Origin: an uncultured Luteolibacter sp.
GTDB lineage: Bacteria; Verrucomicrobiota; Verrucomicrobiia; Verrucomicrobiales; Akkermansiaceae
Reading direction: 5' to 3'
Length of the DNA: 64,000 nt
NCBI GenBank assembly: GCA_964569415.1
Contig: CAZMUK010000001.1
Location: 16,481-80,480, forward strand
Under the pieces are notes generated by a model. It ran no database searches and had not been told where the DNA came from. It saw only the letters and a program-made list of their open reading frames with translations. Shown here one piece after another: positions 46,949 through 59,185 of the stretch (its first letter is position 1; every line of letters begins with the position of its first letter). Both the position numbers and the translations under genes were made by a program.

Positions 46949-47785
46949 TTGCCGTCCTTGACGATTTCCTCCGTGGACAAGTTGCGCTCCATTGCCGCCG
47001 GACTGCGCCGTGATGTGATCGGCATGTCCCACCGCGCGCGGACGCCTCACCTCGGATCCTGCCTTTCGTGCATCGATCTGCTGGTCGCCTTGTATTGGGA
47101 TTTCCTGCACATCGATCCGCGCGATCCGACTTCGCCCGACCGCGATCGTTTCATCCTCAGCAAGGGCCATGCGGCCCCGGCGCTTTACTCCGTCCTATGT
47201 GCGCGCGGATTCTTTCCGCCCGTGCTGCTTGCGAACTACGCAAGCGACGGCGCCGCGCTTGCCGAGCAACCGGCGCCCGGCTGCGCCCCCGGCGTGGAAT
47301 GGGCCACCGGCTCGCTCGGGCACGGTCTTCCGGTTGGCGTCGGCATGGCGTTGGCTGCACGGATTGCGAAACGCGACTACCGCAGCGTTGTCATGCTCAG
47401 CGACGGGGAGTGCAACGAGGGCACCGTCTGGGAGGCGGCGATGTTCGCTGCCGCGCAACGGATCGGCTCGCTGACGGTGATCGTCGATTACAACAAGTGG
47501 CAAGCAACGGGACGCAGCGAGGAGGTGATGGCGCTCGCACCCTTGCGCGAAAAGTGGGAGGCTTTCGGGTGGGAAAGTTGCGAGGTGAACGGCCACGATT
47601 TTCCGGAGATCCGCGAGGCCCTCGCCCGTGCCGGGACGGCAGGCCGTTCCCGGCCCCTCGCCATCGTCGCCCACACCATCAAGGGCCGCGGCGTCTCGTT
47701 CATGGAGGACGACAACAACTGGCACTATCGCATTCCCAATGCGGAAGAACTGGCCAGCGCAGAAAAGGAACTCGCGCTGGAATGA
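46949..47785 (+). CDS. Transketolase, N-terminal (TPP-binding) subunit
   Basis: HLGSCLSCID, DRFILSKGHAA, TGSLGHGL, SDGECNEGTVWEA, HTIKGRGVSFME. TTG start is uncertain. Confidence 0.92.
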   Translation: MPSLTISSVDKLRSIAAGLRRDVIGMSHRARTPHLGSCLSCIDLLVALYWDFLHIDPRDPTSPDRDRFILSKGHAAPALYSVLCARGFFPPVLLANYASDGAALAEQPAPGCAPGVEWATGSLGHGLPVGVGMALAARIAKRDYRSVVMLSDGECNEGTVWEAAMFAAAQRIGSLTVIVDYNKWQATGRSEEVMALAPLREKWEAFGWESCEVNGHDFPEIREALARAGTAGRSRPLAIVAHTIKGRGVSFMEDDNNWHYRIPNAEELASAEKELALE

Positions 47786-48201
47786 TGAAGGAAGAAGGCA
47801 GAAGGCAAAATAGAAAAGCAGATCTTGCCGATAGAACAAAGCTCTATGCCCGGCGCATTATTCGGCTTGTGTCGGCTTTGCCGAAGTCGGTTGTTGCGCA
47901 AGTGTTGGGCAAACAGGTTCTGCGTAGCGGAACGTCGGTGGGCGCGAACTATCGCGAAGCATCACGAGCTAGAAGCAAAGCTGAGTTCATCGCAAAAATG
48001 GGCGATTGCCTGAAAGAACTTGGTGAATCTGAATACTGGCTCGAGCTACTTTCCGAAGAAAGCGTGGTTCCATCGGCCAAACTTGCTCCGCTGCTGCAAG
48101 AAACTCACGAGCTAACCGCGATATTTGTCACGAGTATCAAAACCGCCCGCGGAAGCTGACTGTGCATTCATCATTCTGCACTCTGACTTCTAACTTTTCC
48201 C
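47780..48201. mobile_element. Putative repeat-bounded four-helix-bundle cassette inserted between the transketolase subunits
   Basis: gaatgatgaa (47780-47789) and ttcatcattc (48167-48176) form a perfect 10-bp inverted repeat. Purine-rich short repeats lie on the left and pyrimidine-rich short repeats on the right. Confidence 0.55.
47782..48159 (+). CDS. Four helix bundle protein (TIGR02436-type)
   Basis: QVLRSGTSVGANYREA.RARSKAEFIAK...LKEL.ESEYWLELL...ELTAIFVTSIK. 125 aa; visibly more A/T-rich than its neighbours. Confidence 0.93.
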   Translation: MMKEEGRRQNRKADLADRTKLYARRIIRLVSALPKSVVAQVLGKQVLRSGTSVGANYREASRARSKAEFIAKMGDCLKELGESEYWLELLSEESVVPSAKLAPLLQETHELTAIFVTSIKTARGS

Positions 48202-49125
48202 ATGCGTAACGCCTTCGCAGACGAAATCACGAGTCTTGCGCGGGAACGCGGGGACATCGTGCTGCTCTCCGGCGACATCGGCAACCGGCTTTTCGATCGG
48301 TTCAAGGAGGTGGCTCCCGGTCGTTTCTTCAACTGCGGAGTCGCCGAGGCGAACATGGTCGGCCTGGCTGCGGGGATGGCGGCCAGCGGTCTGCGGCCCG
48401 TTTGCTACACCATTGCCTCTTTCCTCACCTACCGGGTGATCGAGCAGATCCGGCTGGATCTCGGATACCATCACCAGCCCGTCATCCTGGTCGGCACCGG
48501 TGCGGGCTTGTCCTATGCCTCGCTGGGATCGACGCACCACTCGGTGGAGGACATGGGAATGCTGCGCCTGATTCCCGGACTTGCCGTGCTGGCGCCCGGC
48601 GACGAAAAGGAACTGCGGCCGGCCCTGCGCGCGGCGCTGGATCATCCTGGCCCGGTGTACATTCGCATCGGAAAGAAGGGCGAACCGGTGGTTCACGAGC
48701 ACGAACCGGAAGTCACCATCGGAAAGGCCGTACGCCTGCGCGAAGGAAACGACGCATGGATTCTCACACTGGGGAACACGCTGCCGATGGCCATGGAGGC
48801 CGCCGGAAAGCTTGCGGGAGAAGGACTGAGCTGCGGTGTCGCCAGCATGATCTCCCTCAAGCCCCTCGACAACAGCCTTCTTGCCGAGGTGTTCGGCTCA
48901 TCGAAAGTCGTTGCCACGATCGAAGAGCACTCGGTCCTCGGCGGTCTGGGCACAGCCGTTTCCGAATGGCTCGCCGGTAATGCTTCATCGGCCAAGGCCA
49001 AGCTCCTCACCTTCGGAACACCCGACGAGTTTCTCCACGCCACCACCCACCAACCATCCGCCCGCGCGTGGGCCGGTTTGACTGCAGACATAGTTGCCGA
49101 ACGCATTCTTGCGCTAAGCCAGTAG
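48202..49125 (+). CDS. Transketolase, C-terminal (pyrimidine-binding/C) subunit
   Basis: MRNAFADEI, LLSGDIG, FNCGVAEANMVGLAAG, GSTHHSVED, YIRIGK, TIEEHSVLGGLG. Confidence 0.92.
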   Translation: MRNAFADEITSLARERGDIVLLSGDIGNRLFDRFKEVAPGRFFNCGVAEANMVGLAAGMAASGLRPVCYTIASFLTYRVIEQIRLDLGYHHQPVILVGTGAGLSYASLGSTHHSVEDMGMLRLIPGLAVLAPGDEKELRPALRAALDHPGPVYIRIGKKGEPVVHEHEPEVTIGKAVRLREGNDAWILTLGNTLPMAMEAAGKLAGEGLSCGVASMISLKPLDNSLLAEVFGSSKVVATIEEHSVLGGLGTAVSEWLAGNASSAKAKLLTFGTPDEFLHATTHQPSARAWAGLTADIVAERILALSQ

Positions 49126-49164
49126 CATTCTGCATTCATCATTCTAAATTCTTCATTTCACTTC
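49125..49164. repeat. ORF-less copy of the four-helix-bundle cassette right-end repeat filling a whole intergenic space
   Basis: tgcattcatcattct at 49131-49145 is identical to 48163-48177. Confidence 0.75.
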
Positions 49165-49833
49165 ATGTCCTACATCGACTTCATCGCTCCGATCCACAAG
49201 GCGACGAGTCGTGATTATCTCGCTCGCGTAAACGATCCCGAATTTCCCAAGGCGAGGGCCGCGGAGTTGGCGCTTCAGTGGGGCGTCGATTACTGGGATG
49301 GCGACCGCCGCACCGGATACGGCGGCATGAACTACGATGGCCGCTGGCGCAAGGTGGCGGATCTCATGGCCTCCCATTACGGTCTCAAGGCGGGCGACCG
49401 CGTGCTGGACATCGGATGCGGAAAGGGATTTTTGCTCCATGACCTGACCCAGGCGGTTCCCGGCATCGAGGTGACCGGACTCGAGATCAGCAACTATGCC
49501 ATCAAACACGCCAAACCCGAGGTGAGGGAACGCATCGTCCACGGCAATGCCGCGGTATTGCCGTTTGCGGACGGGGAATTCGATTTCGTGTACTCCATCA
49601 ATACCCTGCACAATCTTCCTTGCCCCGAACTCGACCGTGCCCTGCGCGAAATGATGCGGGTCGGCAGGGGACACCGGTATCTTTGCGTCGAAAGCTGGCG
49701 CAACGAGTCCGAGAAAGCGAACCTGCTTTACTGGCAACTCACCTGCCGCGCCTTCTTCGCGCCGGACGAATGGGAGTGGTGGTTCGAACGGACCGGCTAC
49801 ACCGGCGACCACAGCTTTATTTATTTCGAGTGA
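49165..49833 (+). CDS. Class I SAM-dependent methyltransferase
   Basis: RVLDIGCGKGFL, FDFVYSINTLHN, REMMRVG. Confidence 0.88.
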   Translation: MSYIDFIAPIHKATSRDYLARVNDPEFPKARAAELALQWGVDYWDGDRRTGYGGMNYDGRWRKVADLMASHYGLKAGDRVLDIGCGKGFLLHDLTQAVPGIEVTGLEISNYAIKHAKPEVRERIVHGNAAVLPFADGEFDFVYSINTLHNLPCPELDRALREMMRVGRGHRYLCVESWRNESEKANLLYWQLTCRAFFAPDEWEWWFERTGYTGDHSFIYFE

Positions 49834-49836
49834 CCT

Positions 49837-50519
49837 GAACCACGAATCACACGGATTCCACGGATTATTCAGGGAAAATCAAGACTGAGTGCACATTGGG
49901 AAAGACCTCACGAAATCGCGAGGCATCCGGTTAGGGGTAGAAATTCTTTCCTGAGTCTGTTCGGGTATCTGTGCGATTTGGCACTTCCAAGGTTCAATTT
50001 TTCCTATCGTTTCAAACAACTTCTTACCGGACCAATCCGTGAAGCGGTCCGATCCCGAGTCAATGGCTTCCATGAATCCTCCTGGAAAACCACTGGTTCA
50101 CGAAGAACTCAGCAAGCGGATCATCGGTGCGGCCATGGATGTTCTCAATGCACTCCGACCCGGGTTGGATGAAAAGGTCCATGAGAACGCCCTGGTTGTT
50201 GAGTTGCGTCTCCGCGGCCATCAGGTGGAGCAGCAGCGAGGGTTCCCCATCCGGTATAAGGGAAATTTGGTGGGAACGCTGATTCCGGATCTGATCGTTG
50301 ATGATCTCGTAATTGTGGATACCAAGGTCGTCTCCACCTTCAACGATGCCCATACCGCTCAAATGACTGGTTATTTGGCAATTACCGGCCTTCGATTTGC
50401 CATCCTGTTGAATTTCAAGTCTGCGAAACTCGAGTGGAAACGGGTCGTCCGCTGATAAACATGAGGTTTTGCACACGGCAACTCTTTTGAATCAGTGTCA
50501 TTTGTGTGATCCGTGGTTC
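49837..50519. mobile_element. GxxExxY cassette bounded by 30-bp imperfect terminal inverted repeats
   Basis: Left gaaccacgaatcacacggattccacggatt (49837-49866); the reverse complement of the right repeat (50490-50519) is gaaccacggatcacacaaatgacactgatt. 24 of 30 positions match. Confidence 0.7.
50072..50455 (+). CDS. GxxExxY protein (PD-(D/E)xK nuclease fold)
   Basis: IIGAAMDVLNALRPGLDEKVHENAL, YKGNLVG...PDLIVDDLVIVDTK, AQMTGYL..TG...ILLNF. Start at 50072 or 50063. Confidence 0.9.
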   Translation: MNPPGKPLVHEELSKRIIGAAMDVLNALRPGLDEKVHENALVVELRLRGHQVEQQRGFPIRYKGNLVGTLIPDLIVDDLVIVDTKVVSTFNDAHTAQMTGYLAITGLRFAILLNFKSAKLEWKRVVR

Positions 50520-50526
50520 GAAAACC

Positions 50527-51579
50527 ATGAAAACCCCAGCCGCCATTTTGGTCGAGCAGCGCAAACCGCTGGTGATCGACGAAGTCGAGGTTCCGGTGCT
50601 GCGGCGCGGACAGGTGCTTGTCGAGATCCACGCCACGCGTGTCTGCGGATCGCAGATCGGCGAGATCGACGGAGTCAAGGGTCCCGATCGCTATCTTCCC
50701 CACCTGCTCGGTCACGAGGCGGGCGGCATCGTACTCGAGGTCGGAACGGATGTGACCCATGTTGCGCCGGGTGACCGTGTGGTCTGCCACTGGCGTCCGG
50801 GAGCCGGCATCGATGCGGGAGGATCGGTGTACGATTGGCACGGCAAGCCGGTCAATGCGGGCCCAATCACCACCTTTCAACGACACGCCGTCATTTCCGA
50901 GAACCGACTTACCAAAGTTCCCGCCGATACCGATTTCGAATTGTGCTGCCTTCTCGCCGACACCCTGACGACCGGATTCGGGATCATAAACAATGACGCC
51001 AAGGTCAAAGCGGGGGAGTCGGTTGTCATTTTCGGGGTGGGAGGAATCGGTCTCGGCGTGGTGCTCGGAGCCAAGCTTGCGGGAGCGGACCCGGTCATCG
51101 GCATAGATCTTCATGAGCACAAATTGGCCAAAGCTGCCGAATACGGCCTGACGCATCAGATCAATGCCTCGCGCGAAAACGCTGCTGATCGGGTGAAGGA
51201 GATTCTTGGTGGATTGGCCGATGTCACGATTGATGGAACCGGGAATCCCGGTGTTATCGAAACGGCCTACGACCTGGCCAAGCTGCGCGGGGGGCGCTGC
51301 GTGTTGTTTGGCGTGATGCCCCACGACCAGCGCGTGAGCATCCACACCCTGCCGCTGCACTTCGGTCGAATCCTCACCGGATCGGAGGGCGGCCAAAGCC
51401 AACCGGATAAGGACATTCCGAAGATTCTCGGCACCCTGGCCGCGCAAGGGTTCGATTGGCGGGGACTCGTTTCTCATCGGTCCGTGATGCAGGCCGTCAA
51501 TGAAAACACCGCTGCAATGCGCGCCGGCTCGGTGGTGAATGCGGTGCTGCACATGCATCAGAGCCCCGCCGGGTCCTGA
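50527..51579 (+). CDS. Zinc-binding alcohol dehydrogenase (MDR) family protein
   Basis: VCGSQ, LLGHEAGG, GVGGIG. The structural four-Cys zinc loop appears absent. Confidence 0.88.
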   Translation: MKTPAAILVEQRKPLVIDEVEVPVLRRGQVLVEIHATRVCGSQIGEIDGVKGPDRYLPHLLGHEAGGIVLEVGTDVTHVAPGDRVVCHWRPGAGIDAGGSVYDWHGKPVNAGPITTFQRHAVISENRLTKVPADTDFELCCLLADTLTTGFGIINNDAKVKAGESVVIFGVGGIGLGVVLGAKLAGADPVIGIDLHEHKLAKAAEYGLTHQINASRENAADRVKEILGGLADVTIDGTGNPGVIETAYDLAKLRGGRCVLFGVMPHDQRVSIHTLPLHFGRILTGSEGGQSQPDKDIPKILGTLAAQGFDWRGLVSHRSVMQAVNENTAAMRAGSVVNAVLHMHQSPAGS

Positions 51580-51610
51580 TCGGAACAGGTTAGTCCGGGA
51601 AGAAAGCCAA

Positions 51611-53308
51611 ATGACCTCATTTATCTCGAAGGCCGGATGGCGCGGAGTCGCTTTGATCTTCTGTGTGGGTCTTCTGTCGCACGGCCTGCTTTTGTTCAAC
51701 GAAAATGTCGTTGGGGACGGATGGTGGGAGTTTTCGGATGTCGCGTGGTAAGGCGGCCCGACGGTGACGGCCCAGCACCTTGCCGAGGTGGGTCGGCCGC
51801 TGGATCTGGTTTACTACAAGCCGTTTTGTCTTGTCAGCGACTTCGCTTCGCGCGTGTGGCTGTCCAAGTTTTTCGGTTCCCTTGCCTGGATCGCCTCTGC
51901 GGTGATGATGGCGGGGGTTCTCGCACGGGGTGCACGGATTCCTCGCACGGTCGCGGTCGGGGTCGGCGCAAATGTTGCGGCTTGTCCGGTCTTCGTGCTG
52001 CTCGGGGAGTTCTCCTTGTGGATGTACACCTCCGCCGTTTTCCTCTTCTGGGTCGGATGGTCCATTCTGGTCTACCTTCCGCGCTTGCCGGTACGAAGTG
52101 CCTTGTTCCTGCGGCTTCCGGCCTTGGCCGTGTTCTTCCTCAGCTTCAATTTGAACTCGTTGCTCGTTCTTTTCTATTCGGTATGCATTCTCCTGATGCT
52201 GGTCCGTCTCCGCGGGATCGGTTTTCGCAGGTTTCCGGAACGGGCGCTTTCGCTTGCATTGCGAAAATGCGACTTCCTTTTGCTTCCGGTGTTATTCTGG
52301 ATCTGGAGATCGCTGTTTTGTCCGAAGTCGGGACCGTATGTCGGCTACAACACCCTCGATTTCGCGCCTGGCAAGTTGTGGGTTGGTGCCGGAGAGGCGT
52401 ACCGGCAGCTTCTCCTGCCCTGGGCCGAGGGGATCCTGGAACCCAGCGGCTGGATTTATGTTGCGGCTCTCGTCTGCCTGGTTTTCGGGTGGTTCCAGCG
52501 CCGCAGCAGGGCCAACGAAACGGTTTCCGCCAGGCCGCCGGTCGGGATGTTTTTTGCGGGTATCTTCCTTCTTCTGGCCGCGGTCTTCCCGTACCTTGCG
52601 GTGGGCCAGATCCCGTCGGCGGAAGGATGGTCCAGTCGCAACGCGATTCTCACGCCGCTTCCCCTTGCCTTGGCGCTGACCTCTTCATTCGTATTCCTGT
52701 CCCGCCGAATCTGGCCCGGATCGCCGAATGCGTGGCAACTTGTTGCCGCCGCATGGATCGTCCTCAGTACCGGCCAGTGTATCCGCAACTATCTTTCCTT
52801 GCAGGGTTTGGGGGCCAAGCACGAGACGATCTCGCGGCGGATCAACGAGATCATCGCGGGCGACCCCCCGGCATTGATTCAGCTCCGCGACTATTTCCGG
52901 CTCCCCGGCACAATCGACTCCTACCCTCCCGGCATCTGGACGCTTCTTCCCACCAAGGGATCAATCGACCCGAAGACCTTTGTGATCGAAACCGTCGCCT
53001 CCGCCCCGGATCAGGCGCGAAGCGATGATGCGGGCAGAGTCATGTACGAGCCGGTCTGGTTTGCCGTCTCCGGCAAGGGCTTGGCGGACGCGATTGAAGC
53101 CACGACGCTTGCTCACACCATGGAGGGAATCCCGAGGCAAGGCAGGCATGTGGGTCTCTTGGTCCGCCCGGTGCGGCAGGACGGAGATGCGGCGAAACTT
53201 GGCCTTGATTACCTTTGGACCAAATGGTTTGATCGTACCCAGATGAACAGGTTCCTTGCCAGCATTGCGACAAGTGAGTTCGGGGAACTTCCGCCTGTGA
53301 CGGAGTAA
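51611..53308 (+). pseudogene. Multi-pass membrane protein (GT-C/GtrII-like) interrupted by an in-frame TAA
   Basis: ATG at 51611 reads MTSF...GDGWWEFSDVAW, then TAA (51749-51751), then GGPTVTAQHLAEVGRP... continuing in the same frame to 53308 with about 10 hydrophobic segments. Confidence 0.65.
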
Positions 53309-53344
53309 GAGCCCGTTTTCCATACCGGAACCTCCATTTGACCC

Positions 53345-54121
53345 ATGAAAACCGTCATCCTTGCCGGCGGCCTCGGCTCGCGCTTGAGCGAGGAAACGAT
53401 GAACCGCCCCAAACCGCTCATCGAGATCGGCGGGCGACCGATTCTCTGGCACATCATGAAAATTTATTCGTCGTTCGGACTGAATGATTTTGTGATCTGT
53501 CTTGGTTACAAAGGCTATCTAATCAAGGAGTTTTTTGCGAATTATTTCCTGCACATGTCGGATGTGACGATCGATCTGGCAAGCAACAAGATCAATGTAC
53601 ATCGCAACGAATCGGAGCCTTGGAGGGTGACCCTTGTGGATACCGGAGAGGGGACGATGACGGGAGGCAGGATAAAACGGATCCGTCCCTATGTGGAGAA
53701 CGAGGACTTCTGCCTCACCTATGGCGATGGCGTAGCGGATGTGGATGTCTCTGCTCTCGTTGAGTTTCATCGCAAAGAGGGCGCCCATGCCTCCCTTACC
53801 GCCATGCAACCGCCGGGACGCTTCGGTGCTTTGAGCGTTTCGGGAAAGCGCGTCGTCCGGTTCCAGGAGAAGCCCACCGGAGACAACGCCTGGGTGAACG
53901 GTGGCTTTTTCGTGTGTTCTCCGAGGGTGTTCGATTACATCGACGGGGATGACAGCGTTTGGGAGCGAGAACCACTCGAACGCCTTTCGGCGGAAGGGCA
54001 GCTGGCGACGTTTTTCCACAGGGGTTTCTGGCAACCGGTCGACACGCTTCGTGACCGGAACCATCTTCAGGAGCTTTGGGACGGCGGTCAGGCGCCCTGG
54101 CAAGTCTGGAACAGAAAATGA
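53345..54121 (+). CDS. rfbF: Glucose-1-phosphate cytidylyltransferase
   Basis: MKTVILAGGLGSRLSEET..RPKPLIEIGG, VDTGEGTMTGGR, LTYGDGV, GFWQPVDTLRD. Confidence 0.95.
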   Translation: MKTVILAGGLGSRLSEETMNRPKPLIEIGGRPILWHIMKIYSSFGLNDFVICLGYKGYLIKEFFANYFLHMSDVTIDLASNKINVHRNESEPWRVTLVDTGEGTMTGGRIKRIRPYVENEDFCLTYGDGVADVDVSALVEFHRKEGAHASLTAMQPPGRFGALSVSGKRVVRFQEKPTGDNAWVNGGFFVCSPRVFDYIDGDDSVWEREPLERLSAEGQLATFFHRGFWQPVDTLRDRNHLQELWDGGQAPWQVWNRK

Positions 54122-55203
54122 ACCGCTCATTCTGGCGAGGCAAACGGGTATTGGTGACCGGCCACACGGGCTTCAAGGGCAGTTGGCTTGTTTCGTGGCT
54201 GCTCCGTGCGGGGGCGCGGGTGGGCGGCTACAGCCTGACTCCCGGGCCGGGGCCCTCCCTGTTTCGCGAACTCGGTCTCGCCAAGAGGGTGCAGCATCAC
54301 ATCGGCGACATCAGGTCCCCTGAAAAGCTCATCAAGGCGGTCAAGGATGCGGATCCCCAGATTGTCTTCCATCTCGCCGCCCAGCCGCTGGTGCGGGAAT
54401 CCTACCGCAGTCCGGTACAAACCTATGCGGTCAATGTGCTCGGCACCGTGAACCTTCTCCAGGCAGTCAGGCTTACGAAGGGAGTGAAGGTCGTCATCAA
54501 TGTAACGACCGACAAGGTCTACGCGAACGACGAGAAGGGCGTCGGGTTTAGTGAACACGCTCCGTTGGGAGGCCATGACCCGTACAGCAGCAGCAAGGCC
54601 TGTTCCGAGCTTGTGACCCAGTCCTATCGAGACTCGTTTTTTTCCAAGGAATCCGCCGTATGCTCCGTTCCGGTGCGGGTGGCCACTGCCCGCTCGGGCA
54701 ATGTTGTCGGAGGAGGCGACTGGGCTCACGACCGCCTGATTCCCGATCTTGCCCGGGCATTCGAAGCCAACAGTGAAGCCTTGGTCCGTAACCCCGGTGC
54801 CGTCAGACCCTGGCAACATGTCCTTGAGCCGTTACACGGCTACCTGCTGCTTGCGGAATCATTGTGGTTCTCCCCGGACAACGCCACCTCCTGGAACTTC
54901 GGCCCTGCTTCCCGCCTGTCGAGGAATGTCGGGTGGATGGCAGATATGTTCGTGCGCGAGTGGGGGGATGGCGCCCGTTGGAGGGCGGACAGACGGAAGC
55001 ATCCGCCGGAGGCGCGGTTGTTGAAACTCGATTCGAGGCGGGCCGCAGCAAAGCTGGGCTGGAATTGCCGCCTGTCGATCGGACAGACGGTCAGGTGGAC
55101 GGCAGAGTGGTACAAGCAGAGGTGCAGCGGAGACTGCGTTCGCGATCTCACCGAAAGGCAACTGGCGGAGTACGAAAAACTCGTTTCATCGGCACGGTCA
55201 TGA
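54118..55203 (+). CDS. rfbG: CDP-glucose 4,6-dehydratase
   Basis: FWRGKRVLVTGHTGFKGSWL, HLAAQPLVRESY, TTDKVY, DPYSSSK, RPWQHVLEPL. Confidence 0.95.
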   Translation: MNRSFWRGKRVLVTGHTGFKGSWLVSWLLRAGARVGGYSLTPGPGPSLFRELGLAKRVQHHIGDIRSPEKLIKAVKDADPQIVFHLAAQPLVRESYRSPVQTYAVNVLGTVNLLQAVRLTKGVKVVINVTTDKVYANDEKGVGFSEHAPLGGHDPYSSSKACSELVTQSYRDSFFSKESAVCSVPVRVATARSGNVVGGGDWAHDRLIPDLARAFEANSEALVRNPGAVRPWQHVLEPLHGYLLLAESLWFSPDNATSWNFGPASRLSRNVGWMADMFVREWGDGARWRADRRKHPPEARLLKLDSRRAAAKLGWNCRLSIGQTVRWTAEWYKQRCSGDCVRDLTERQLAEYEKLVSSARS

Positions 55204-56216
55204 ACGGATCCGAAGCACCGCCTTCCCCGAAACGGGACCGGACAAAGACCCTCTCCATCGTGGTGCCGTTTCTCAATGAGGAGACGATCATCGACCTGTT
55301 TTTCGAGGAAACCATGGGCAGGGTCGCCGAACTGGGAATGCCTTATGAGATGATCTGCGTCGACAACGGCAGCACAGATGCCACCTCCGACCGGCTGCTC
55401 CTATGGAGGACCAGGCATCCCGAGATCAAAGTCATCCGCTTTTCGCGTTATTTCGGCAAGGAGGCCGCCCTCACCGCCGGCCTGGACCATGCCTCGGGTG
55501 ACGCGGTGATCCTGATGGACCCCGATCTTCAGGATCCTCCCGCGATGCTCGATGTATTTGTCTGCAAATGGATCGAGGGCTTCGACATGGTCTACGCCAC
55601 CCGTCGCTCCTCGGGGATCGAGTCTCCGGTCAAGTCGTGGCTCAACCGTATGTTCTACCGGGTTTTCAATTTCGTCTGCGAGCAGGGCATTCCGTCCCAG
55701 ACCGGCGACTTCCGGCTCATCGATTCAAAGATCGCGGATGTCCTCAGGCACACCCGGGAAAAGTCGCGTTTTCTGCGGGGCCTCACGACCTGGGCGGGCT
55801 TCAAAAGCCATGCCCTGTTTTTCGACCGCCCCGAGCGGCGCAAAGGAAAGTCGAAGTCCAACTATCTTTTCCTCTGGGCATACGCCCTTGATGCAATCCT
55901 GTCCTCGACCACCCGGCCTCTGCGCATCTGGGTCTACCTCGGATTCATGATCTCGGGGGCCGCGCTCATGGCTGCCTTGATCCTGATCATCAGAACCATG
56001 TTCTTCGGCAAGGACGTGATCGGCTACGCAAGCACCATGGTGACGATTCTTTTCTTCGGGGGATTTCAATTGATATCAATTGGCGTGGTTGCGGAGTACA
56101 TCGGGCGTATATACCGCGAGGTCCAGAACCGGCCGCTTTATGTGATTGACGAATCCTTCGGAATCGCGACCGATCGCGTCCCGCCGGAATGCGGGGGAGG
56201 CGGCAACCCTGACTGA
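55200..56216 (+). CDS. GtrB-like polyprenyl-phosphate glycosyltransferase (GT2 plus two C-terminal TM helices)
   Basis: SIVVPFLNEE, DNGSTD, FSRYFGKEAAL, MDPDLQDPP, GDFRLID, EYIGRIYREVQNRPLY. Confidence 0.92.
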   Translation: MNGSEAPPSPKRDRTKTLSIVVPFLNEETIIDLFFEETMGRVAELGMPYEMICVDNGSTDATSDRLLLWRTRHPEIKVIRFSRYFGKEAALTAGLDHASGDAVILMDPDLQDPPAMLDVFVCKWIEGFDMVYATRRSSGIESPVKSWLNRMFYRVFNFVCEQGIPSQTGDFRLIDSKIADVLRHTREKSRFLRGLTTWAGFKSHALFFDRPERRKGKSKSNYLFLWAYALDAILSSTTRPLRIWVYLGFMISGAALMAALILIIRTMFFGKDVIGYASTMVTILFFGGFQLISIGVVAEYIGRIYREVQNRPLYVIDESFGIATDRVPPECGGGGNPD

Positions 56217-56226
56217 TTAACAGCTT

Positions 56227-57519
56227 ATGACGACATGGAAGCAATGCCGCCTCTGCGGCCATTCGGAACTGAAAACGATTCTTGATCTCGGGGAGCAGCC
56301 GTTGAGTGGTGTTTTCCCGATGCCAGATGAGGCGGACCCGGGCAAGTCGCCCTTGGAGTTGGTGCGTTGCGGCTCGCCGGCGTGCGGACTCGTCCAACTG
56401 AAGCACACGGCCGAGTTGGGGGAAATGTACGGTGCGACCTACGGTTATTTCTCGTCGATCAGTCCGATGATGGTGGCGCATCTGCTCGGGAAGGTCGGCG
56501 ATCTTGCGCAGCGGGCCGGGCTCCGGCCGGGCGATGCCGTGCTGGACATCGGCTGCAACGACGGGACGCTGCTCAATGGTTACGGCAAGGATGCAGGTTT
56601 GCTGCGTGCGGGAATGGATCCGTCTGCCGCGAAGTTTGCAGACCGTTACGATCCGGACATCCGGGTTGCCTTTGACTTCTTTTCCGCGGCCGGGGCCGGG
56701 AAGCTCCTCGGGGACAGGAAGTGCAAGGTGATCACATCGATCGCCATGTTCTACGACCTCGACGACCCGCTTTCCTTTGTCCGTGACATTGCTTCGCTTC
56801 TCACGATCGACGGCATCTGGGCTGCGGAGTTGTCCTACCTTCCGCTTTTGCTCAAGCAACTGACCTACGATCAGGTCTGCCACGAACATGTGACCTACAT
56901 CGGTTTACGCGAAATGGATTCGATCGCGCGGCAATGCGGGTTGCGGATACTGGATGTCTGGTTCAACGACATGAACGGCGGCAGCTTCTATTTCCATGCG
57001 GGGCGCGCGGACGGACCCTATATTGCGAACACGCCGAAGATCGAGGCCTTGCTTGCCGAGGAGGCTGTTCTTGCATCGGACGCCCCCTTCGCCCGTCTGC
57101 ACAACCGGGTCCTGAACCATCGCGACGAGATCAGGAATTTCCTCGGTTTCGCCCGGGCCGCGAAGGCCTCGGTTTGCGGATACGGGGCATCCACCAAGGG
57201 GAACATCGTGATGAGCTACTGCGGCATCGGTCCCGGGGACCTTGAATTCATCGGCGACAGGAATCCGGAGAAGGACGGACGCGTCACGCCGGGGACACGC
57301 ATCCCCATCGTGTCGCACGCCGAGCTGAGGAAACGGAGGCCGGATTACCTCCTCTGTTTCATCTGGCATTTGCGCAAGGAGGTGTTGGCCGACGAACGGG
57401 ACTACATCATGAACGGAGGAAGGATCGTTTTTGTTCTTCCCCGTCTCCACATCGTCGATACGTCCAACTACGAGAGATATCTCGGGGCATCGTTCGAGGA
57501 TCTTGCCTTCTCGATTTGA
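56227..57519 (+). CDS. NDP-sugar C-methyltransferase (Zn-ribbon, SAM domain, Methyltransf_14-like C-terminus)
   Basis: CRLCG, LVRCG..CGLVQL, LDIGCNDGTLL, YDQVCHEH, GYGASTKGN, PGTRIPI. Confidence 0.88.
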   Translation: MTTWKQCRLCGHSELKTILDLGEQPLSGVFPMPDEADPGKSPLELVRCGSPACGLVQLKHTAELGEMYGATYGYFSSISPMMVAHLLGKVGDLAQRAGLRPGDAVLDIGCNDGTLLNGYGKDAGLLRAGMDPSAAKFADRYDPDIRVAFDFFSAAGAGKLLGDRKCKVITSIAMFYDLDDPLSFVRDIASLLTIDGIWAAELSYLPLLLKQLTYDQVCHEHVTYIGLREMDSIARQCGLRILDVWFNDMNGGSFYFHAGRADGPYIANTPKIEALLAEEAVLASDAPFARLHNRVLNHRDEIRNFLGFARAAKASVCGYGASTKGNIVMSYCGIGPGDLEFIGDRNPEKDGRVTPGTRIPIVSHAELRKRRPDYLLCFIWHLRKEVLADERDYIMNGGRIVFVLPRLHIVDTSNYERYLGASFEDLAFSI

Positions 57520-57566
57520 GCAGTTTCAATGGCCATTGCGGCTGGGCGGCTGGATCTTTCCTCGGG

Positions 57567-58550
57567 ATGGGCACTTGTTTCTGGAGAGGGCGGCGGGTGC
57601 TGGTGACAGGCGCTGGCGGTTTTATCGGCCGCAGGCTGGTGCAGGCCATTTCAGCCCGCGGCGCCTGCGTCACCCGTTTGTTCCATGGGTGCGAGGGACG
57701 CAAGTTCCAACAGGGTGTCGGATGGCTGGCGGCGGGGATCACCGACCTGGGCGATATGGCCCATGCCGTTGGTGACGGTGATTTCGAACTGGTTTTTCAC
57801 CTGGCGGCGGTCAACACCAATCGGGGCAGTAGGTTTCCTGCCTACGGCGTCTTTGAAACGAATTTGCGCGGAACCTACACGGTTCTTGAGGCGGCACGCA
57901 TGGCGGGGAAGCAGCCGAAGGTGGTGGTTTTCTCCAGCCGTGAAGTCGAGCCCTTGCTGCGGCGGGATCCGGATGGACCCACCCATCCCTATGCCGCATC
58001 CAAGCTCGGTGCGGAACTTGCTGCCGCTGCCTATGCGGACACTTGCGGCCTGGATGTGTCCATCATCAGAACCGGAAATGCATACGGTCCCGGCGACTTG
58101 AATTTCGGAAGACTGATTCCCGCCGTGATCCTCTCGCTCCTTACCGGCGAGCGGCCCGTCATAAAGGGACCGCCCGAGGCCGTGAGGGACTACATTTACA
58201 TCGACGATTTGATTGCGGCCTCGATGGAAACAGCCGAGAGAGCAAATGGAAACGTCCGGGGCGAGCGGGTGCATCGGCTTGCCACCGGAGTCCAGACAAC
58301 TACGGCTTCGGTTGTCCGCAAGCTCCTCAAGCTCGCCGGCTGGAAGGATGTGGATCCTTTTCCGGGCGTTCCATTCGGCGGCGAGAGAACGGATGAGTAC
58401 CATATTCCCGCACGTTCCGGGTCCAGCCCGGAAAAGTGGAGCGGGGTATCCCTCGACGAGGGGCTTGTGCGGACTTTTGCGTGGTACCAGCGGATCTTTC
58501 GAAGGTTTGGCGGCTCCGCTCTCAGGGAACTGGGGAAAGGCCATCCATGA
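57567..58550 (+). CDS. NAD-dependent CDP-sugar epimerase/reductase (RfbG-related SDR)
   Basis: FWRGRRVLVTGAGGFIG, FHLAA, YAASK, GNAYGPGD, RDYIYIDD. Confidence 0.85.
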   Translation: MGTCFWRGRRVLVTGAGGFIGRRLVQAISARGACVTRLFHGCEGRKFQQGVGWLAAGITDLGDMAHAVGDGDFELVFHLAAVNTNRGSRFPAYGVFETNLRGTYTVLEAARMAGKQPKVVVFSSREVEPLLRRDPDGPTHPYAASKLGAELAAAAYADTCGLDVSIIRTGNAYGPGDLNFGRLIPAVILSLLTGERPVIKGPPEAVRDYIYIDDLIAASMETAERANGNVRGERVHRLATGVQTTTASVVRKLLKLAGWKDVDPFPGVPFGGERTDEYHIPARSGSSPEKWSGVSLDEGLVRTFAWYQRIFRRFGGSALRELGKGHP

Positions 58551-59071
58551 TCGTGGCTTTTCTAACCGTTTCCGCCGTCGCCCTGTGTGCGGCCTGGCTC
58601 CTGCACATCCTGCTCTGGCGGGTGCGACTTCCTTCGCGGCAACTGATGACCTTGCTATCGGTATTTTCCGCAGTCTGGGTTTTGGCCTCGGTCTGGATTC
58701 TGCTCTCGCCGGGATCGTTCGGTTTGGGGGATCGGGTTTCGGCTGCGGGATTCATCTACTTTGGCCTCCTCTATTGGTCCGCGGCTCTCTGCTATGTGAT
58801 CACCTATTCCGCGATGGAGGGGGACAGTCCGACGCTGAGTCTGACACGGCACCTGCATCGCACGGGCAAGGGGGGTGTCCCGCATGAGGAGATTGAGGAG
58901 TTTTTCCGTCAAAGGCCGTTTGTCGGTGCCCGGGTGACGGCTTTGGTCGCGGACGGGGTTCTCGTCGAGGAAGAGAGCGGCTATCGGCTTTCGTCGGGGA
59001 GGTATCTGTTTTTCCGCGTGATCCTCGGCTATCGGCGGTTCGTCTTCGGGCAGGTAAAGGCGGGGGGATAG
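58547..59071 (+). CDS. Small membrane protein (3-4 TM plus soluble C-terminal domain), paralog A
   Basis: Hydrophobic N-terminal half; C-terminal ..HEEIEEFF..ARVTALVADGVLVEEESGYRL. ATGA-coupled. Confidence 0.75.
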   Translation: MIVAFLTVSAVALCAAWLLHILLWRVRLPSRQLMTLLSVFSAVWVLASVWILLSPGSFGLGDRVSAAGFIYFGLLYWSAALCYVITYSAMEGDSPTLSLTRHLHRTGKGGVPHEEIEEFFRQRPFVGARVTALVADGVLVEEESGYRLSSGRYLFFRVILGYRRFVFGQVKAGG

Positions 59072-59086
59072 CAGCGATCGGGTTTT

Positions 59087-59173
59087 GCCACGGATTTCGC
59101 GTTCAGCGCAGATATGGGGTGCGAAAAATCAATTAATTCGGATCAGTGAGATTGGTTTCGTCAGTGGTTCGAA
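59087..59173. repeat. ORF-less element resembling both ends of the GxxExxY cassette
   Basis: 59141-59173 matches 50490-50522 at 25 of 33 positions without gaps. gccacggatt at 59087 resembles the left-end ccacg(a/g)at motif. Confidence 0.65.
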
Positions 59174-59185
59174 CCCCGAAATACC

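What the first reader, a model, noticed from the sequence alone, without database searches (positions are those of the whole stretch)
47780..59185. Two families of gene-junction micro-elements, each present as a full cassette and an empty copy, inside a glycan operon
Seen: four intergenic spaces in one co-directional operon are occupied by short repeats, running from just after (or overlapping) a stop codon to just before the next ATG. Family 1 (tgcattcatcattct) carries a four-helix-bundle ORF at 47.8 kb and is empty at 49.1 kb. Family 2 (ccacggat.../...gtggttcgaa) carries a GxxExxY nuclease-fold ORF at 50 kb and is empty at 59.1 kb. No transposase or integrase is present. Inference: these are non-disruptive, junction-targeting mobile or recombination units, autonomous plus MITE-like, that could insert without breaking operon reading and serve as handles for swapping sugar-biosynthesis genes.
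Basis: partly seen in the sequence, partly recalled or inferred. Interest (0 to 1): 0.8.

Follow-up and report, generated by a model that had tools for sequence, protein, structure and literature searches.

The report
Repeat-armed small-gene cassettes at operon junctions
Two small genes in a freshwater Verrucomicrobium's sugar operon, a four-helix-bundle protein and a small nuclease, each lie between mirror-image runs of short repeats exactly between a stop and the next start codon; relatives show such cassettes being gained, gutted, reduced to one arm or replaced, and they are built like the gene-carrying inserts known from 23S ribosomal RNA.

Summary
All four spacers (47.78-48.20, 49.13-49.16, 49.83-50.53 and 59.07-59.19 kb) are insertions relative to empty orthologous junctions in 14 related Chthoniobacterales loci. 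Three of those empty junctions are ATGA stop/start overlaps.

The cargo genes are TIGR02436 (four-helix bundle, the S23p/Avd family) and TIGR04256 (GxxExxY, a PD-(D/E)XK nuclease). Each is flanked by inverted arrays of short repeats: about 4-5 heptamers for 4HB and about three 9-mers for GxxExxY.

In 101 genomes of the same family, 47 of 53 such cassettes sit tightly between co-directional genes. Related cassettes at unrelated loci carry the same arm repeat, so arms plus gene move together.

The "empty" copies are decay products: a lone right arm at 49.1 kb and a degenerate two-armed remnant at 59.1 kb. They are not a proliferating MITE family. The family-1 15-mer occurs only twice in the genome.

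Both cassettes are fixed in this species, and the gene-content breakpoints of the glycan locus carry no element. "Handles for gene swapping" is therefore not supported.

The closest known relative is the ORF-bearing 23S rRNA intervening sequence. However, 20 23S genes in eight complete relatives carry none. How the cassettes move is unknown.

The parts
47775..47832 (+). Left arm of the 4HB cassette. It is a purine-rich heptamer array (GAATGAT GAAGGAA GAAGGCA GAAGGCA AAATAGA AAAGCAG). It contains the tktN stop codon (47783-47785) and the 4HB start codons (ATG at 47782 and 47785).
   Evidence: Sequence. TRF reports period 7 at 47787-47807. It forms an inverted repeat with 49125-49144 and with 48163-48177.
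47785..48159 (+). Four-helix-bundle protein gene (TIGR02436 / PF05635, the S23p/Avd family). It is intact, at 124 aa.
   Evidence: E 5.7e-25. It matches PDB 2RLD at E 2e-20. dN/dS is 0.06 against the intact ortholog in L003. The protein sequence differs by two adjacent residues (FV to SF) in the sister haplotype.
48160..48201 (+). Right arm of the 4HB cassette (TGCATTC ATCATTC TGCACTC TGACTTC TAACTTT). It runs up to the tktC start codon and acts as that gene's leader.
   Evidence: It is absent from the empty junctions of L006, L007 and L009-L014, where tktN and tktC overlap as ATGA or GTGA in most loci (TGA/TTG in L009; a 5-nt spacer in L013).
49126..49164 (+). Lone family-1 right arm (CATTCTG CATTCAT CATTCTA AATTCTT CATTTCA CTTC) between the tktC stop and the methyltransferase start. 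There is no left arm and no ORF.
   Evidence: TRF reports period 7 with 4.7 copies. The 15-mer is shared with 48163. The empty junction is only 5-7 nt long in L006-L009, L013 and L014. The same type of arm follows an AbiEii-type module in L011 and L012 and its remnant in L005.
49834..49873 (+). Left arm of the GxxExxY cassette. It is an array of roughly 9-nt units (GAACCACGAAT CACACGGATT CCACGGATT) starting 1 nt after the methyltransferase stop codon.
   Evidence: SNP 49845 is A in the window and G in the sister haplotype, which restores 16/16 pairing.
49874..50062 (+). Non-coding interior of the GxxExxY cassette. It contains a decayed inner right-arm unit (ACCAATCCGTGAAGCGGTCCGATCC, 50031-50055). 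This matches the inner arm of the hairpin that precedes the ORF in L004 and L006.
   Evidence: Comparison of the window with L004 and L006 sequences. No promoter or terminator signal above chance was found.
50063..50455 (+). GxxExxY protein gene (TIGR04256 / PF13366 PDDEXK_3). It is intact, at 130 aa from ATG 50063; an alternative GTG start lies at 50039.
   Evidence: E 2.7e-36. Residues E37, D76 and [DE]86-x-K88 are invariant. The AF2 model has pLDDT 89.8. Its nearest folds are lambda-exonuclease and Cas4-like nucleases, weakly, at TM 0.48-0.58. Orthologs are intact in L004, L005 and L012; in L006 the core is open but the upstream start region carries an extra base. dN/dS is 0.04-0.09 where dS is measurable.
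50456..50526 (+). 3' spacer and right arm of the GxxExxY cassette (GTGTGATCCGTGGTTC, 50504-50519). It ends 7 nt before the ADH start codon at 50527.
   Evidence: The empty junction is an ATGA or GTGA overlap in L002, L009, L010 and L013.
59072..59185 (+). Degenerate ORF-less family-2 element between g58436 and g59186. The left arm starts CCACGGATT (59088). The right arm ends GTGGTTCGAA (59164-59173).
   Evidence: It is 73% identical over 44 nt to 50479-50522 (D5). The fold is not significant. A homologous element sits at the same junction in L014 and a gutted 4HB cassette in L010. The junction is an empty ATGA overlap in L001, L004, L007 and L011-L013.

Best explanation
**What they are.** These are repeat-armed small-gene cassettes of the type known from ORF-bearing 23S rRNA intervening sequences, living here in an mRNA operon, together with their decay products.

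A complete cassette has three parts:
- a left arm (an array of short direct repeats);
- a promoterless small ORF, either a 4HB/S23p protein or a GxxExxY PD-(D/E)XK nuclease;
- a right arm, which is the same array inverted.

**Shown.**
- The cassette lies exactly between the stop of one gene and the start of the next co-directional gene. Often this is a junction that was formerly an ATGA overlap.
- The left arm carries or abuts the upstream stop codon and the cassette's own start codon.
- The distal right arm becomes the leader of the downstream gene.
- Arms and ORF are inherited and relocated as one unit.
- Intact ORFs are under strong purifying selection.
- Cassettes also decay: to pseudogenes, to gutted two-armed hairpins, and to single arms.
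- The single arm next to the downstream start codon is what persists. The 49.1-kb copy is such an arm, and the 59.1-kb copy is a degenerate two-armed remnant.

**Inferred.**
- The cassette is transcribed by read-through from the operon promoter and translated by coupling to the upstream gene.
- The arms pair, as RNA and/or as single-stranded or cruciform DNA, so that the insert is looped out. As in the Coxiella IVS, the stem could be cut by RNase III, which would keep polar effects on the operon small.
- The periodic arms are also binding sites for the cassette's own oligomeric protein.

**Unknown.** The movement step itself is not known. Spread between orthologous junctions is probably helped by homologous recombination of the flanking genes.
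For: **Cargo families.**

**Empty versus occupied junctions in 14 relatives**.
- tktN|tktC is empty (gtATGAgg) in 8 loci, carries 4HB in 6, and carries a gutted 4HB remnant with both arms in L005.
- MT|ADH is empty in four loci (L002, L009, L010, L013) and has only a 35-nt spacer in L011. It holds a GxxExxY with CACGGAT arms in 5 loci and a different GxxExxY with CACGGAG arms in L001 and L014.
- The close pair L004/L008 is 98.7% identical over 3.7 kb yet differs at three junctions.

**Family-wide survey of 101 genomes.**
- GxxExxY is present in 62 genomes and 4HB in 70, at 1-11 copies each.
- Flanking inverted repeats far exceed shuffled controls in 24/29 GxxExxY cassettes and 23/29 4HB cassettes.
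- 20/24 and 27/29 cassettes sit between co-directional long ORFs, with arms mostly within about 25 nt of the upstream stop and mostly within about 40 nt (at most 64 nt) of the downstream start.
- The 4HB arms have period 7 with typically 4-5 copies. The GxxExxY arms have period 9 with about 3 copies.

**Arms and ORF move together.** Related proteins at non-homologous loci share the arm repeat. Examples are GTAGCNN, CAGTTNN and GAACCGCCAAGACGCCAAGG.

**Mirror complementarity.** It extends beyond the repeat core: the best diagonal far outscores the next one.

**Selection and expression signals.**
- dN/dS of intact copies is 0.04-0.11.
- No internal promoter or terminator signal above chance.

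**Published parallel.** The Coxiella IVS has tandem heptamers (GACAGAT) upstream of its S23p ORF, RNase III cuts at the first repeat, and S23p is a homopentameric ring (PMC4990558).
Against: - **No direct evidence of movement now.** Five same-species contigs carry the same cassettes with no indel, and paralogs within this genome are only 38-43% identical.
- **Poor pairing in two window elements.** The window's own 4HB arms keep only a 10-bp perfect stem, and the whole-cassette fold is not better than shuffles (z -1.2). The 59.1-kb element does not fold significantly.
- **Mismatch spectrum.** Mismatches in the arms show no excess of G.U pairs on the sense strand. Antisense-type wobble mismatches number 74 and sense-type 41 (p 0.003). 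A stem selected only in the sense RNA does not predict this.
- **Decay of the ORF.** Four of six 4HB copies at the tktN|tktC junction are pseudogenes, so the protein is dispensable there.
- **No rRNA copies.** The 23S genes of eight complete relatives carry no ORF-sized insert.
Confidence: 0.72

Rival explanations
1. The operon junctions are a passive sink for small selfish or addiction genes. Glycan loci recombine and exchange DNA often. Any small gene that lands between cistrons without harm survives there, and the arms play no role in insertion.
For: The same junctions in relatives hold toxin-antitoxin modules (MazE/AbrB+PIN, Phd+PIN, VapB-like+PIN and an AbiEii nucleotidyltransferase) that have no arms of their own. 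In L005 a 46-bp duplication of the methyltransferase 3' end flanks a TA insertion, which points to illegitimate or homology-facilitated recombination. The identity mosaic between L004 and L008 points the same way.
Against: The sink model does not explain why 47 of 58 surveyed 4HB and GxxExxY genes have matched inverted periodic arms. It does not explain why arm sequence follows the protein lineage to unrelated loci. It also does not explain why ORF-less two-armed hairpins multiply beside the gene in L004-L006.
Confidence: 0.15
2. The elements are host regulatory devices. They would be operon-internal RNA processing or translational-coupling elements, with an RNA-binding or RNA-cutting protein, kept because they tune the stoichiometry of sugar-pathway enzymes. 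They would not be mobile elements.
For: Intact ORFs are under strong purifying selection. GxxExxY has been kept at MT|ADH in five divergent species. The right arm persists as the leader of the downstream gene in many lineages. Both cassettes are fixed in the species.
Against: Many close relatives run the same operon with plain ATGA junctions. The 4HB gene is a pseudogene in four of six carriers. Identical cassette types occur between unrelated genes, for example gyrB|gyrA in this genome and the different flanks seen.
Confidence: 0.08
3. The similarities are chance or compositional resemblance between AT-rich spacers in a 64% GC genome.
For: The repeats are short. The 59.1-kb element and the window's 4HB arms fold no better than shuffled sequence.
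Against: The 15-mer occurs twice against 0.04 expected and only twice in 2.6 Mb. Orthologous empty sites exist for all four spacers. Inverted-repeat scores lie 5 to 30 standard deviations above shuffles in dozens of related cassettes.
Confidence: 0.02

Closest known systems
ORF-bearing intervening sequences (IVS) of 23S rRNA (Coxiella burnetii helix 45, Leptospira, Brucella, Xanthomonas; S23p ORF)
   Same: The cargo family is the same (PF05635/TIGR02436 four-helix-bundle protein). Both have a stem made from the two ends of the insert. Both have tandem heptamers directly upstream of the ORF: GACAGAT in Coxiella, and AGACAGA, GAATGCA or GTAGCAA here. Both show sporadic distribution and decay of the ORF (PMC4990558).
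   Different: The cassettes here lie between protein-coding genes of mRNA operons, not in an rRNA helix. Twenty 23S genes in eight complete genomes of this family are of normal length. A second cargo family, GxxExxY, uses the same design. RNase III excision is not shown here.
Correia elements (CREE/NEMIS) of Neisseria and ERIC-type MITEs
   Same: These are short elements bounded by inverted repeats that sit next to or between genes. They are co-transcribed, fold into hairpins, and can be cut or protected by RNase III (PMC2649163). The ORF-less two-armed hairpins of L004-L006 and the 59.1-kb remnant resemble them.
   Different: Correia elements are high-copy and uniform in sequence, insert at TA, and never carry an ORF. 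Here copy number is 1-4 per genome. Each cassette lineage has its own arm sequence, and the arms are internally periodic.
Free-standing homing endonuclease genes of phages and rRNA-gene insertions with homing endonucleases in CPR bacteria (PMC11270868)
   Same: These are small selfish nuclease genes placed between conserved genes, with presence/absence between relatives and divergent tracts around the insertion. Compare the identity mosaic.
   Different: Homing genes need no inverted arms. The 4HB cargo has no nuclease fold. No cleavage specificity is known for GxxExxY.
Type II/IV toxin-antitoxin modules as operon-junction passengers
   Same: They occupy the very same junctions in relatives. 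They are small, promoterless or weakly expressed, and sporadic.
   Different: The TA modules here have no matched arms. 4HB and GxxExxY are single genes with no partner.
Avd accessory protein of diversity-generating retroelements
   Same: Avd is a homologous pentameric, basic four-helix-bundle protein that binds nucleic acid (PMC10053308).
   Different: No reverse transcriptase, template repeat or variable repeat is present in this locus.

Membership tests
ORF-bearing 23S rRNA intervening sequence | Encodes an S23p / PF05635 four-helix-bundle protein | tested here: met
   TIGR02436 at E 5.7e-25. PF05635 is recorded on the identical gene in L142. PDB 2RLD matches at E 2e-20. This applies to the 4HB cassette only.
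ORF-bearing 23S rRNA intervening sequence | The ends of the insert are inverted repeats that can form a closing stem | tested here: met
   The GxxExxY cassette ends pair in the MFE and centroid folds. The window's 4HB cassette keeps a 10-bp stem, with 14-15 bp in L001, L002 and L003. Inverted repeats exceed shuffles in 47 of 58 related cassettes.
ORF-bearing 23S rRNA intervening sequence | Tandem heptamers immediately upstream of the ORF, as in Coxiella (PMC4990558) | tested here: met
   TRF finds period 7 at 47787-47807. Period 7 (or its multiple, 14) was called in 19 of 29 left arms of related 4HB cassettes, typically with 4-5 copies.
ORF-bearing 23S rRNA intervening sequence | Located inside a 23S rRNA gene (helix 25 or 45) | tested here: not met
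   The cassettes lie between protein-coding genes. This MAG holds no 23S gene. Twenty 23S genes in eight complete relatives measure 2813-2851 nt, so none carries an ORF-sized insert.
ORF-bearing 23S rRNA intervening sequence | Excised from the transcript by RNase III | not testable with these tools
MITE / Correia-like non-autonomous element | Many near-identical ORF-less copies dispersed in the genome | tested here: not met
   The family-1 15-mer occurs twice. The family-2 arms occur at the cassette, at the 59.1-kb remnant and as one solo arm at C23:24549.
MITE / Correia-like non-autonomous element | Terminal inverted repeats enclosing a short non-coding core that folds as a hairpin | tested here: inconclusive
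   This is met in relatives: L004, L005 and L006 hairpins have z of -4.4, -7.3 and -3.2. It is not met by the window's copies: the 49.1-kb copy has one arm only, and the 59.1-kb copy has z -0.76.
MITE / Correia-like non-autonomous element | Fixed target-site duplication | tested here: inconclusive
   NTGA is seen on both sides in several cases: tktN|tktC in L002 and L003, and MT|ADH in the window. It is not consistent. The left stop is TAG at 59.07 kb and TAA in L012, L001 and L014.
PD-(D/E)XK nuclease (GxxExxY, PF13366) | Catalytic E ... D ... (D/E)xK motif and the restriction-endonuclease-like fold | tested here: met
   E37, D76 and [DE]86-x-K88 are invariant in 8 sequences. The AF2 model has pLDDT 89.8. 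Foldseek hits are lambda exonuclease, the Cas4 protein SSO0001 and LHK-Exo at probability 1.0 and TM 0.48-0.58. Enzyme activity was not tested.
Integron gene cassette | A single attC site 3' of the ORF and a nearby IntI integrase / attI platform | tested here: not met
   The arms lie on both sides of the ORF. No integrase was found among the ORFs annotated between 44 and 60 kb. The cassettes sit singly between housekeeping genes.

The most novel reading that the evidence does not exclude
4HB (S23p) and GxxExxY genes with their inverted periodic arms may form one widespread, so far unnamed class of minimal mobile cassettes.

On this reading, the cassette's own oligomeric protein reads its arms, for example one heptamer per subunit of the pentameric 4HB ring, much as TRAP reads its triplet repeats. 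The nuclease or a host enzyme would act on the folded arms. The bottom DNA strand is a candidate substrate, given the antisense-biased wobble pattern.

Such an element could settle in any stop/start junction or rRNA helix tip without harming the host gene. The classical 23S IVS would then be only the rRNA-resident minority of this class.
Probability: 0.25. Interest if true: 0.85.

Novelty: new variant of a known kind. Interest (0 to 1): 0.62.

Why it matters
The origin and mobility of 23S rRNA intervening sequences have been open questions since 1990 (PMC4990558). This locus shows the same element type living between protein-coding genes. It gives a natural series across 15 related loci and four junctions: empty site, full cassette, pseudogene, gutted hairpin, single arm, and replacement by toxin-antitoxin genes.

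That series makes several questions testable:
- whether the arms are read as RNA or as DNA;
- whether the small proteins recognise their own repeats;
- how an insert can sit on a translationally coupled ATGA junction without polar damage.

It also matters for annotation. These arms are translated into spurious N- and C-terminal extensions, such as MMNAEGKMQ or SQRHKGSED. Single relic arms can be mistaken for regulatory leaders.

Tried and rejected
1. **Genome-wide MITE-like spread.** Exact and short-word BLAST searches for both arm families found only the local copies plus one solo arm. Rejected.

2. **Known RNA family, promoter or terminator in the cassettes.** None was found.

3. **Population presence/absence within the species.** Four contigs from other samples are collinear with no indel.

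5. **rRNA-resident copies in this lineage.**
   - The MAG has no 23S gene.
   - A family-wide Rfam search failed.
   - Eight complete genomes have normal-length 23S genes.

6. **Phage carriage.** tblastn of both proteins against 50,697 phage records found nothing.

7. **Species-tree test of gain versus loss.** The locus tree is a near-star with only 3 well-supported forks. It was used only for the sister pairs L004/L008, L011/L012 and L002/L014.

8. **Sense-RNA wobble signature.** An excess of G.U pairs was expected and the opposite bias was found. This remains unexplained.

9. **Fixed target-site duplication.** The evidence is suggestive (NTGA) but inconsistent.

10. **Literature.** No paper was found that describes these cassettes in operons.

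Full report
**1. What is in the window**

The window is C1:16481-80480 of a 2.6-Mb, 64% GC genome in 176 contigs. The closest loci come from freshwater Chthoniobacterales (Verrucomicrobiota) MAGs.

The region 44-60 kb is a co-directional nucleotide-sugar/glycan operon. Its genes are:
- an epimerase;
- a cytidylyltransferase/kinase;
- a split transketolase (tktN 46949-47785, tktC 48202-49125);
- a methyltransferase (MT, 49165-49833);
- a Zn-dependent alcohol dehydrogenase (ADH, start at 50527);
- a membrane protein;
- an NDP-sugar synthase;
- a 4,6-dehydratase;
- a GT2 glycosyltransferase;
- a C-methyltransferase;
- a second epimerase;
- two small membrane proteins.

**2. The repeats are real**

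*Family 1.* The 15-mer occurs at 48163 and 49131. This is 2 matches against 0.04 expected in the window, and there are no other copies in the genome. Both spacers are heptamer arrays. The sequence upstream of the 4HB gene is the same array inverted (GAATGATGAA versus TTCATCATTC).

*Family 2.* The GxxExxY gene lies between GAACCACGAATCACAC and GTGTGATCCGTGGTTC. This 15/16 inverted repeat closes the whole cassette in both the MFE and the centroid fold.

*The 59.1-kb spacer.* It shares 73% identity over 44 nt with the right end of that cassette and begins with CCACGGATT. It no longer folds better than shuffled sequence.

**3. All four spacers are insertions**

I fetched 14 orthologous loci with 75-86% tktC identity and read each junction.

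*tktN|tktC.*
- L006, L007 and L009-L014 are empty. Stop and start overlap (ATGA or GTGA) in six of them; L009 overlaps as TTGA and L013 has a 5-nt spacer.
- The window, L001-L004 and L008 carry a 4HB cassette.
- L003 has an extra two-gene module upstream of it.
- L005 keeps both arms and the last codons of the ORF but has lost the rest.

*tktC|MT.*
- L006-L009, L013 and L014 have 5-7 nt between stop and start.
- The window, L001, L002 and L010 have a lone pyrimidine-rich arm of 27-40 nt. L003 has a longer spacer of about 80 nt that ends in the same kind of arm.
- L004 has a perfect ORF-less family-2 hairpin whose TGA supplies the tktC stop codon.
- L005, L011 and L012 have other cargo followed by the same kind of arm.

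*MT|ADH.*
- L002, L009, L010 and L013 are ATGA or GTGA overlaps.
- The window, L004, L005, L006 and L012 carry the GxxExxY cassette.
- L001 and L014 carry a different GxxExxY gene with CACGGAG-type arms.
- L003 and L005-L008 carry toxin-antitoxin modules.

*g58436|g59186.*
- L001, L004, L007 and L011-L013 are ATGA overlaps.
- The window and L014 carry a family-2 element.
- L010 carries a gutted 4HB cassette.

The other cargo genes in relatives are PIN toxins with MazE/AbrB-, Phd- or VapB-like antitoxins, and an AbiEii nucleotidyltransferase.

**4. Recency and decay**

L004 and L008 are 98.7% identical across 3.7 kb that includes a shared 4HB pseudogene. They still differ at three junctions. 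Their identity falls in blocks (89.6 | 84.5 | 98.7 | 95.9 | 90.8%) that break at junction elements.

The 4HB gene at tktN|tktC is intact only in the window and L003. It is frameshifted or stopped in L001, L002, L004 and L008.

Intact copies are constrained. dN/dS is 0.06 (window versus L003) and 0.08 (L011 versus L012). For GxxExxY it is 0.04-0.09, and dS is saturated between more distant pairs.

Within the species nothing moves. Four contigs from other samples are 99.1-100% identical with no indel and carry all four elements. One of the few SNPs (49845, A in the window and G elsewhere) decides whether the GxxExxY arms pair 15/16 or 16/16.

**5. The design is general in this bacterial family**

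In 101 genomes, GxxExxY occurs in 62 and 4HB in 70, at 1-11 copies each. I analysed the 29 best loci for each gene.

- The best inverted repeat between the two flanks exceeded shuffled controls (8 +/- 1) by a wide margin in 24/29 GxxExxY loci and 23/29 4HB loci, with scores of 12-39.
- In 20/24 and 27/29 cases a long co-directional ORF ends mostly within about 25 nt of the left arm. Another begins mostly within about 40 nt, and at most 64 nt, of the right arm.
- 4HB arms have period 7 with typically 4.0-5.1 units. GxxExxY arms have period 9 with about 3 units.
- The repeat word differs between cassettes (CACGGAT, CGCAGAG, CGCCAAG; GTAGCAA, AGTTTCA, AGACAGA, GTTGAGA), but the two arms of one cassette match each other.
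- Related proteins (60-79% identical) at non-homologous loci share the same word. L091 and L084 have nearly identical arms with unrelated flanks.

The mobile unit is therefore arms plus ORF. For GxxExxY, complementarity is mirrored beyond the repeat core, with best diagonals of 29-44 against next-best of 9-13.

**6. The proteins**

*GxxExxY.*
- It keeps E37, D76 and [DE]86-x-K88.
- It folds with confidence (pLDDT 89.8).
- Its nearest solved folds are lambda-exonuclease, Cas4 and RecB-type nucleases, but only weakly (TM 0.48-0.58).
- No solved structure matches it by sequence.

*4HB.*
- It matches PDB 2RLD.
- It belongs to the S23p/Avd family (PMC10053308).
- The Xanthomonas S23p is reported as a homopentameric ring (cited in PMC4990558).

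**7. Comparison with what is known**

The Coxiella burnetii IVS is a 428-nt selfish element in helix 45 of 23S rRNA. It has an S23p ORF and three to four tandem heptamers (GACAGAT) just upstream of the start codon. RNase III cuts at the first repeat (PMC4990558). Cargo, stem and heptamers match the 4HB cassettes here. The AGACAGA arms of L136 and L137 are nearly the same word.

The location does not match. Twenty 23S genes in eight complete genomes of this family, which carry no to 7 4HB genes each, are 2813-2851 nt long. I therefore file the cassettes as working like an IVS but not as members of that class.

The ORF-less hairpins resemble Correia/ERIC-type elements (PMC2649163). They differ in being low-copy and internally periodic.

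My literature searches found no description of these cassettes in operons.

Earlier notes of this scan describe the same design in other genomes. I treated them as leads only. I had stated my reading before opening them, and I tested the junction rule, the arms and the IVS comparison independently here.

**8. Mechanism: shown and inferred**

*Shown.* Insertion is exact at stop/start junctions. The arms abut or contain the upstream stop and precede the downstream start. Arms and ORF move together. The decay path runs from cassette to pseudogene to gutted hairpin to single arm. The arm next to the downstream start codon persists.

*Inferred.* The cassettes are probably transcribed by read-through, since no promoter or terminator signal rises above chance. 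The cassette ORF is probably translated by coupling, since in the window ATGATGA joins the tktN stop to the 4HB start. The arms probably pair so that the insert is looped out and possibly cut by RNase III.

*Unknown.* The insertion chemistry is not known. Spread between orthologous junctions probably uses homologous recombination of the flanks.

*An unexpected observation.* Arm mismatches are biased towards pairs that would be G.T/G.U wobbles on the antisense strand: 74 against 41 (p 0.003). The SNP at 49845 is of this kind. This argues against a stem selected only in the sense RNA. It is compatible with folding of the bottom DNA strand, with a G-to-A mutational bias, or with selection for A-rich sequence ahead of the cassette's start codon. 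I could not separate these.

**9. The 'swapping handle' idea**

Gene content varies between ADH and g58436: seven genes are present in the window and absent in L001, L004, L007 and L013. Both breakpoints in the window are plain junctions with no arm. One is 51580-51636. The other is the ATGA overlap at 58547. The elements lie one gene outside each breakpoint. The idea is not supported beyond the mosaic seen.

**10. Verdict**

The elements are IVS-type repeat-armed cassettes and their relics, not a transposase-less MITE family in active spread. The class is not described in the literature I could search, and this locus offers an unusually complete natural history of it.

Noticed in passing
genome contig C27:25829-26056 (outside the window): A weak, probably decayed 4HB hit (27 bits) lies between gyrB and gyrA. 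It is followed by a CAATGAC/CGTTGAC heptamer array, with inverted copies upstream.
   Followed up: partly
genome contig C44:21200-21932 (outside the window): A 4HB gene at a contig end is flanked by long, duplicated GCTGAAAT / ATTTCAGC arrays. The upstream array contains a 45-nt unit repeated three times.
   Followed up: no
genome contig C9:1-650 (outside the window): The sequence upstream of this GxxExxY gene repeats the gene's own start (ATGAAAGAAGATC) and its last 55 nt or so (GCGCCTCGTCCACAACCTTCCCGAATAG...). It looks like a tandem internally deleted copy. The contig ends inside the repeat.
   Followed up: no
genome contig C6:17250-17600 (outside the window): An ORF-less palindrome is made of CTAGAGGN 8-mer arrays. 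Its loop contains a family-2 right-arm piece (ATCAGTGTTATCCGTGGTC).
   Followed up: no
L005:5420-6400: A MazE/AbrB-PIN module is flanked by a direct duplication of about 46 bp of the methyltransferase 3' end. The second copy starts at GTGGTTCAAAC, which resembles both the family-2 arm end and the MT coding sequence GTGGTTCGAAC at window 49778.
   Followed up: partly
L004:11700-12370, L005:6300-7114, L006:6380-8000: The GxxExxY gene is flanked by complete hairpins on both sides, and two to five ORF-less family-2 hairpins are stacked in one spacer. The hairpin unit therefore duplicates locally.
   Followed up: partly
window 49845 and arms of 50 related cassettes: Mismatches between arms are biased to A.C / C.A on the sense strand, which corresponds to G.T wobble on the antisense strand: 74 against 41, p 0.003. 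The within-species SNP at 49845 is of this type.
   Followed up: partly
window 49879-50073, minus strand: A 64-aa antisense ORF lies inside the non-coding interior of the GxxExxY cassette. It is called as a gene in public contigs L142 and L144 and has no Pfam hit. It is probably spurious.
   Followed up: no
L001:11662-12135 and L014:11630-12103: The variant GxxExxY ORF reads through its own right arm. This gives a C-terminal tail translated from the repeats (…SQRHKGSEDLTL) and illustrates how arms inflate annotated proteins.
   Followed up: no
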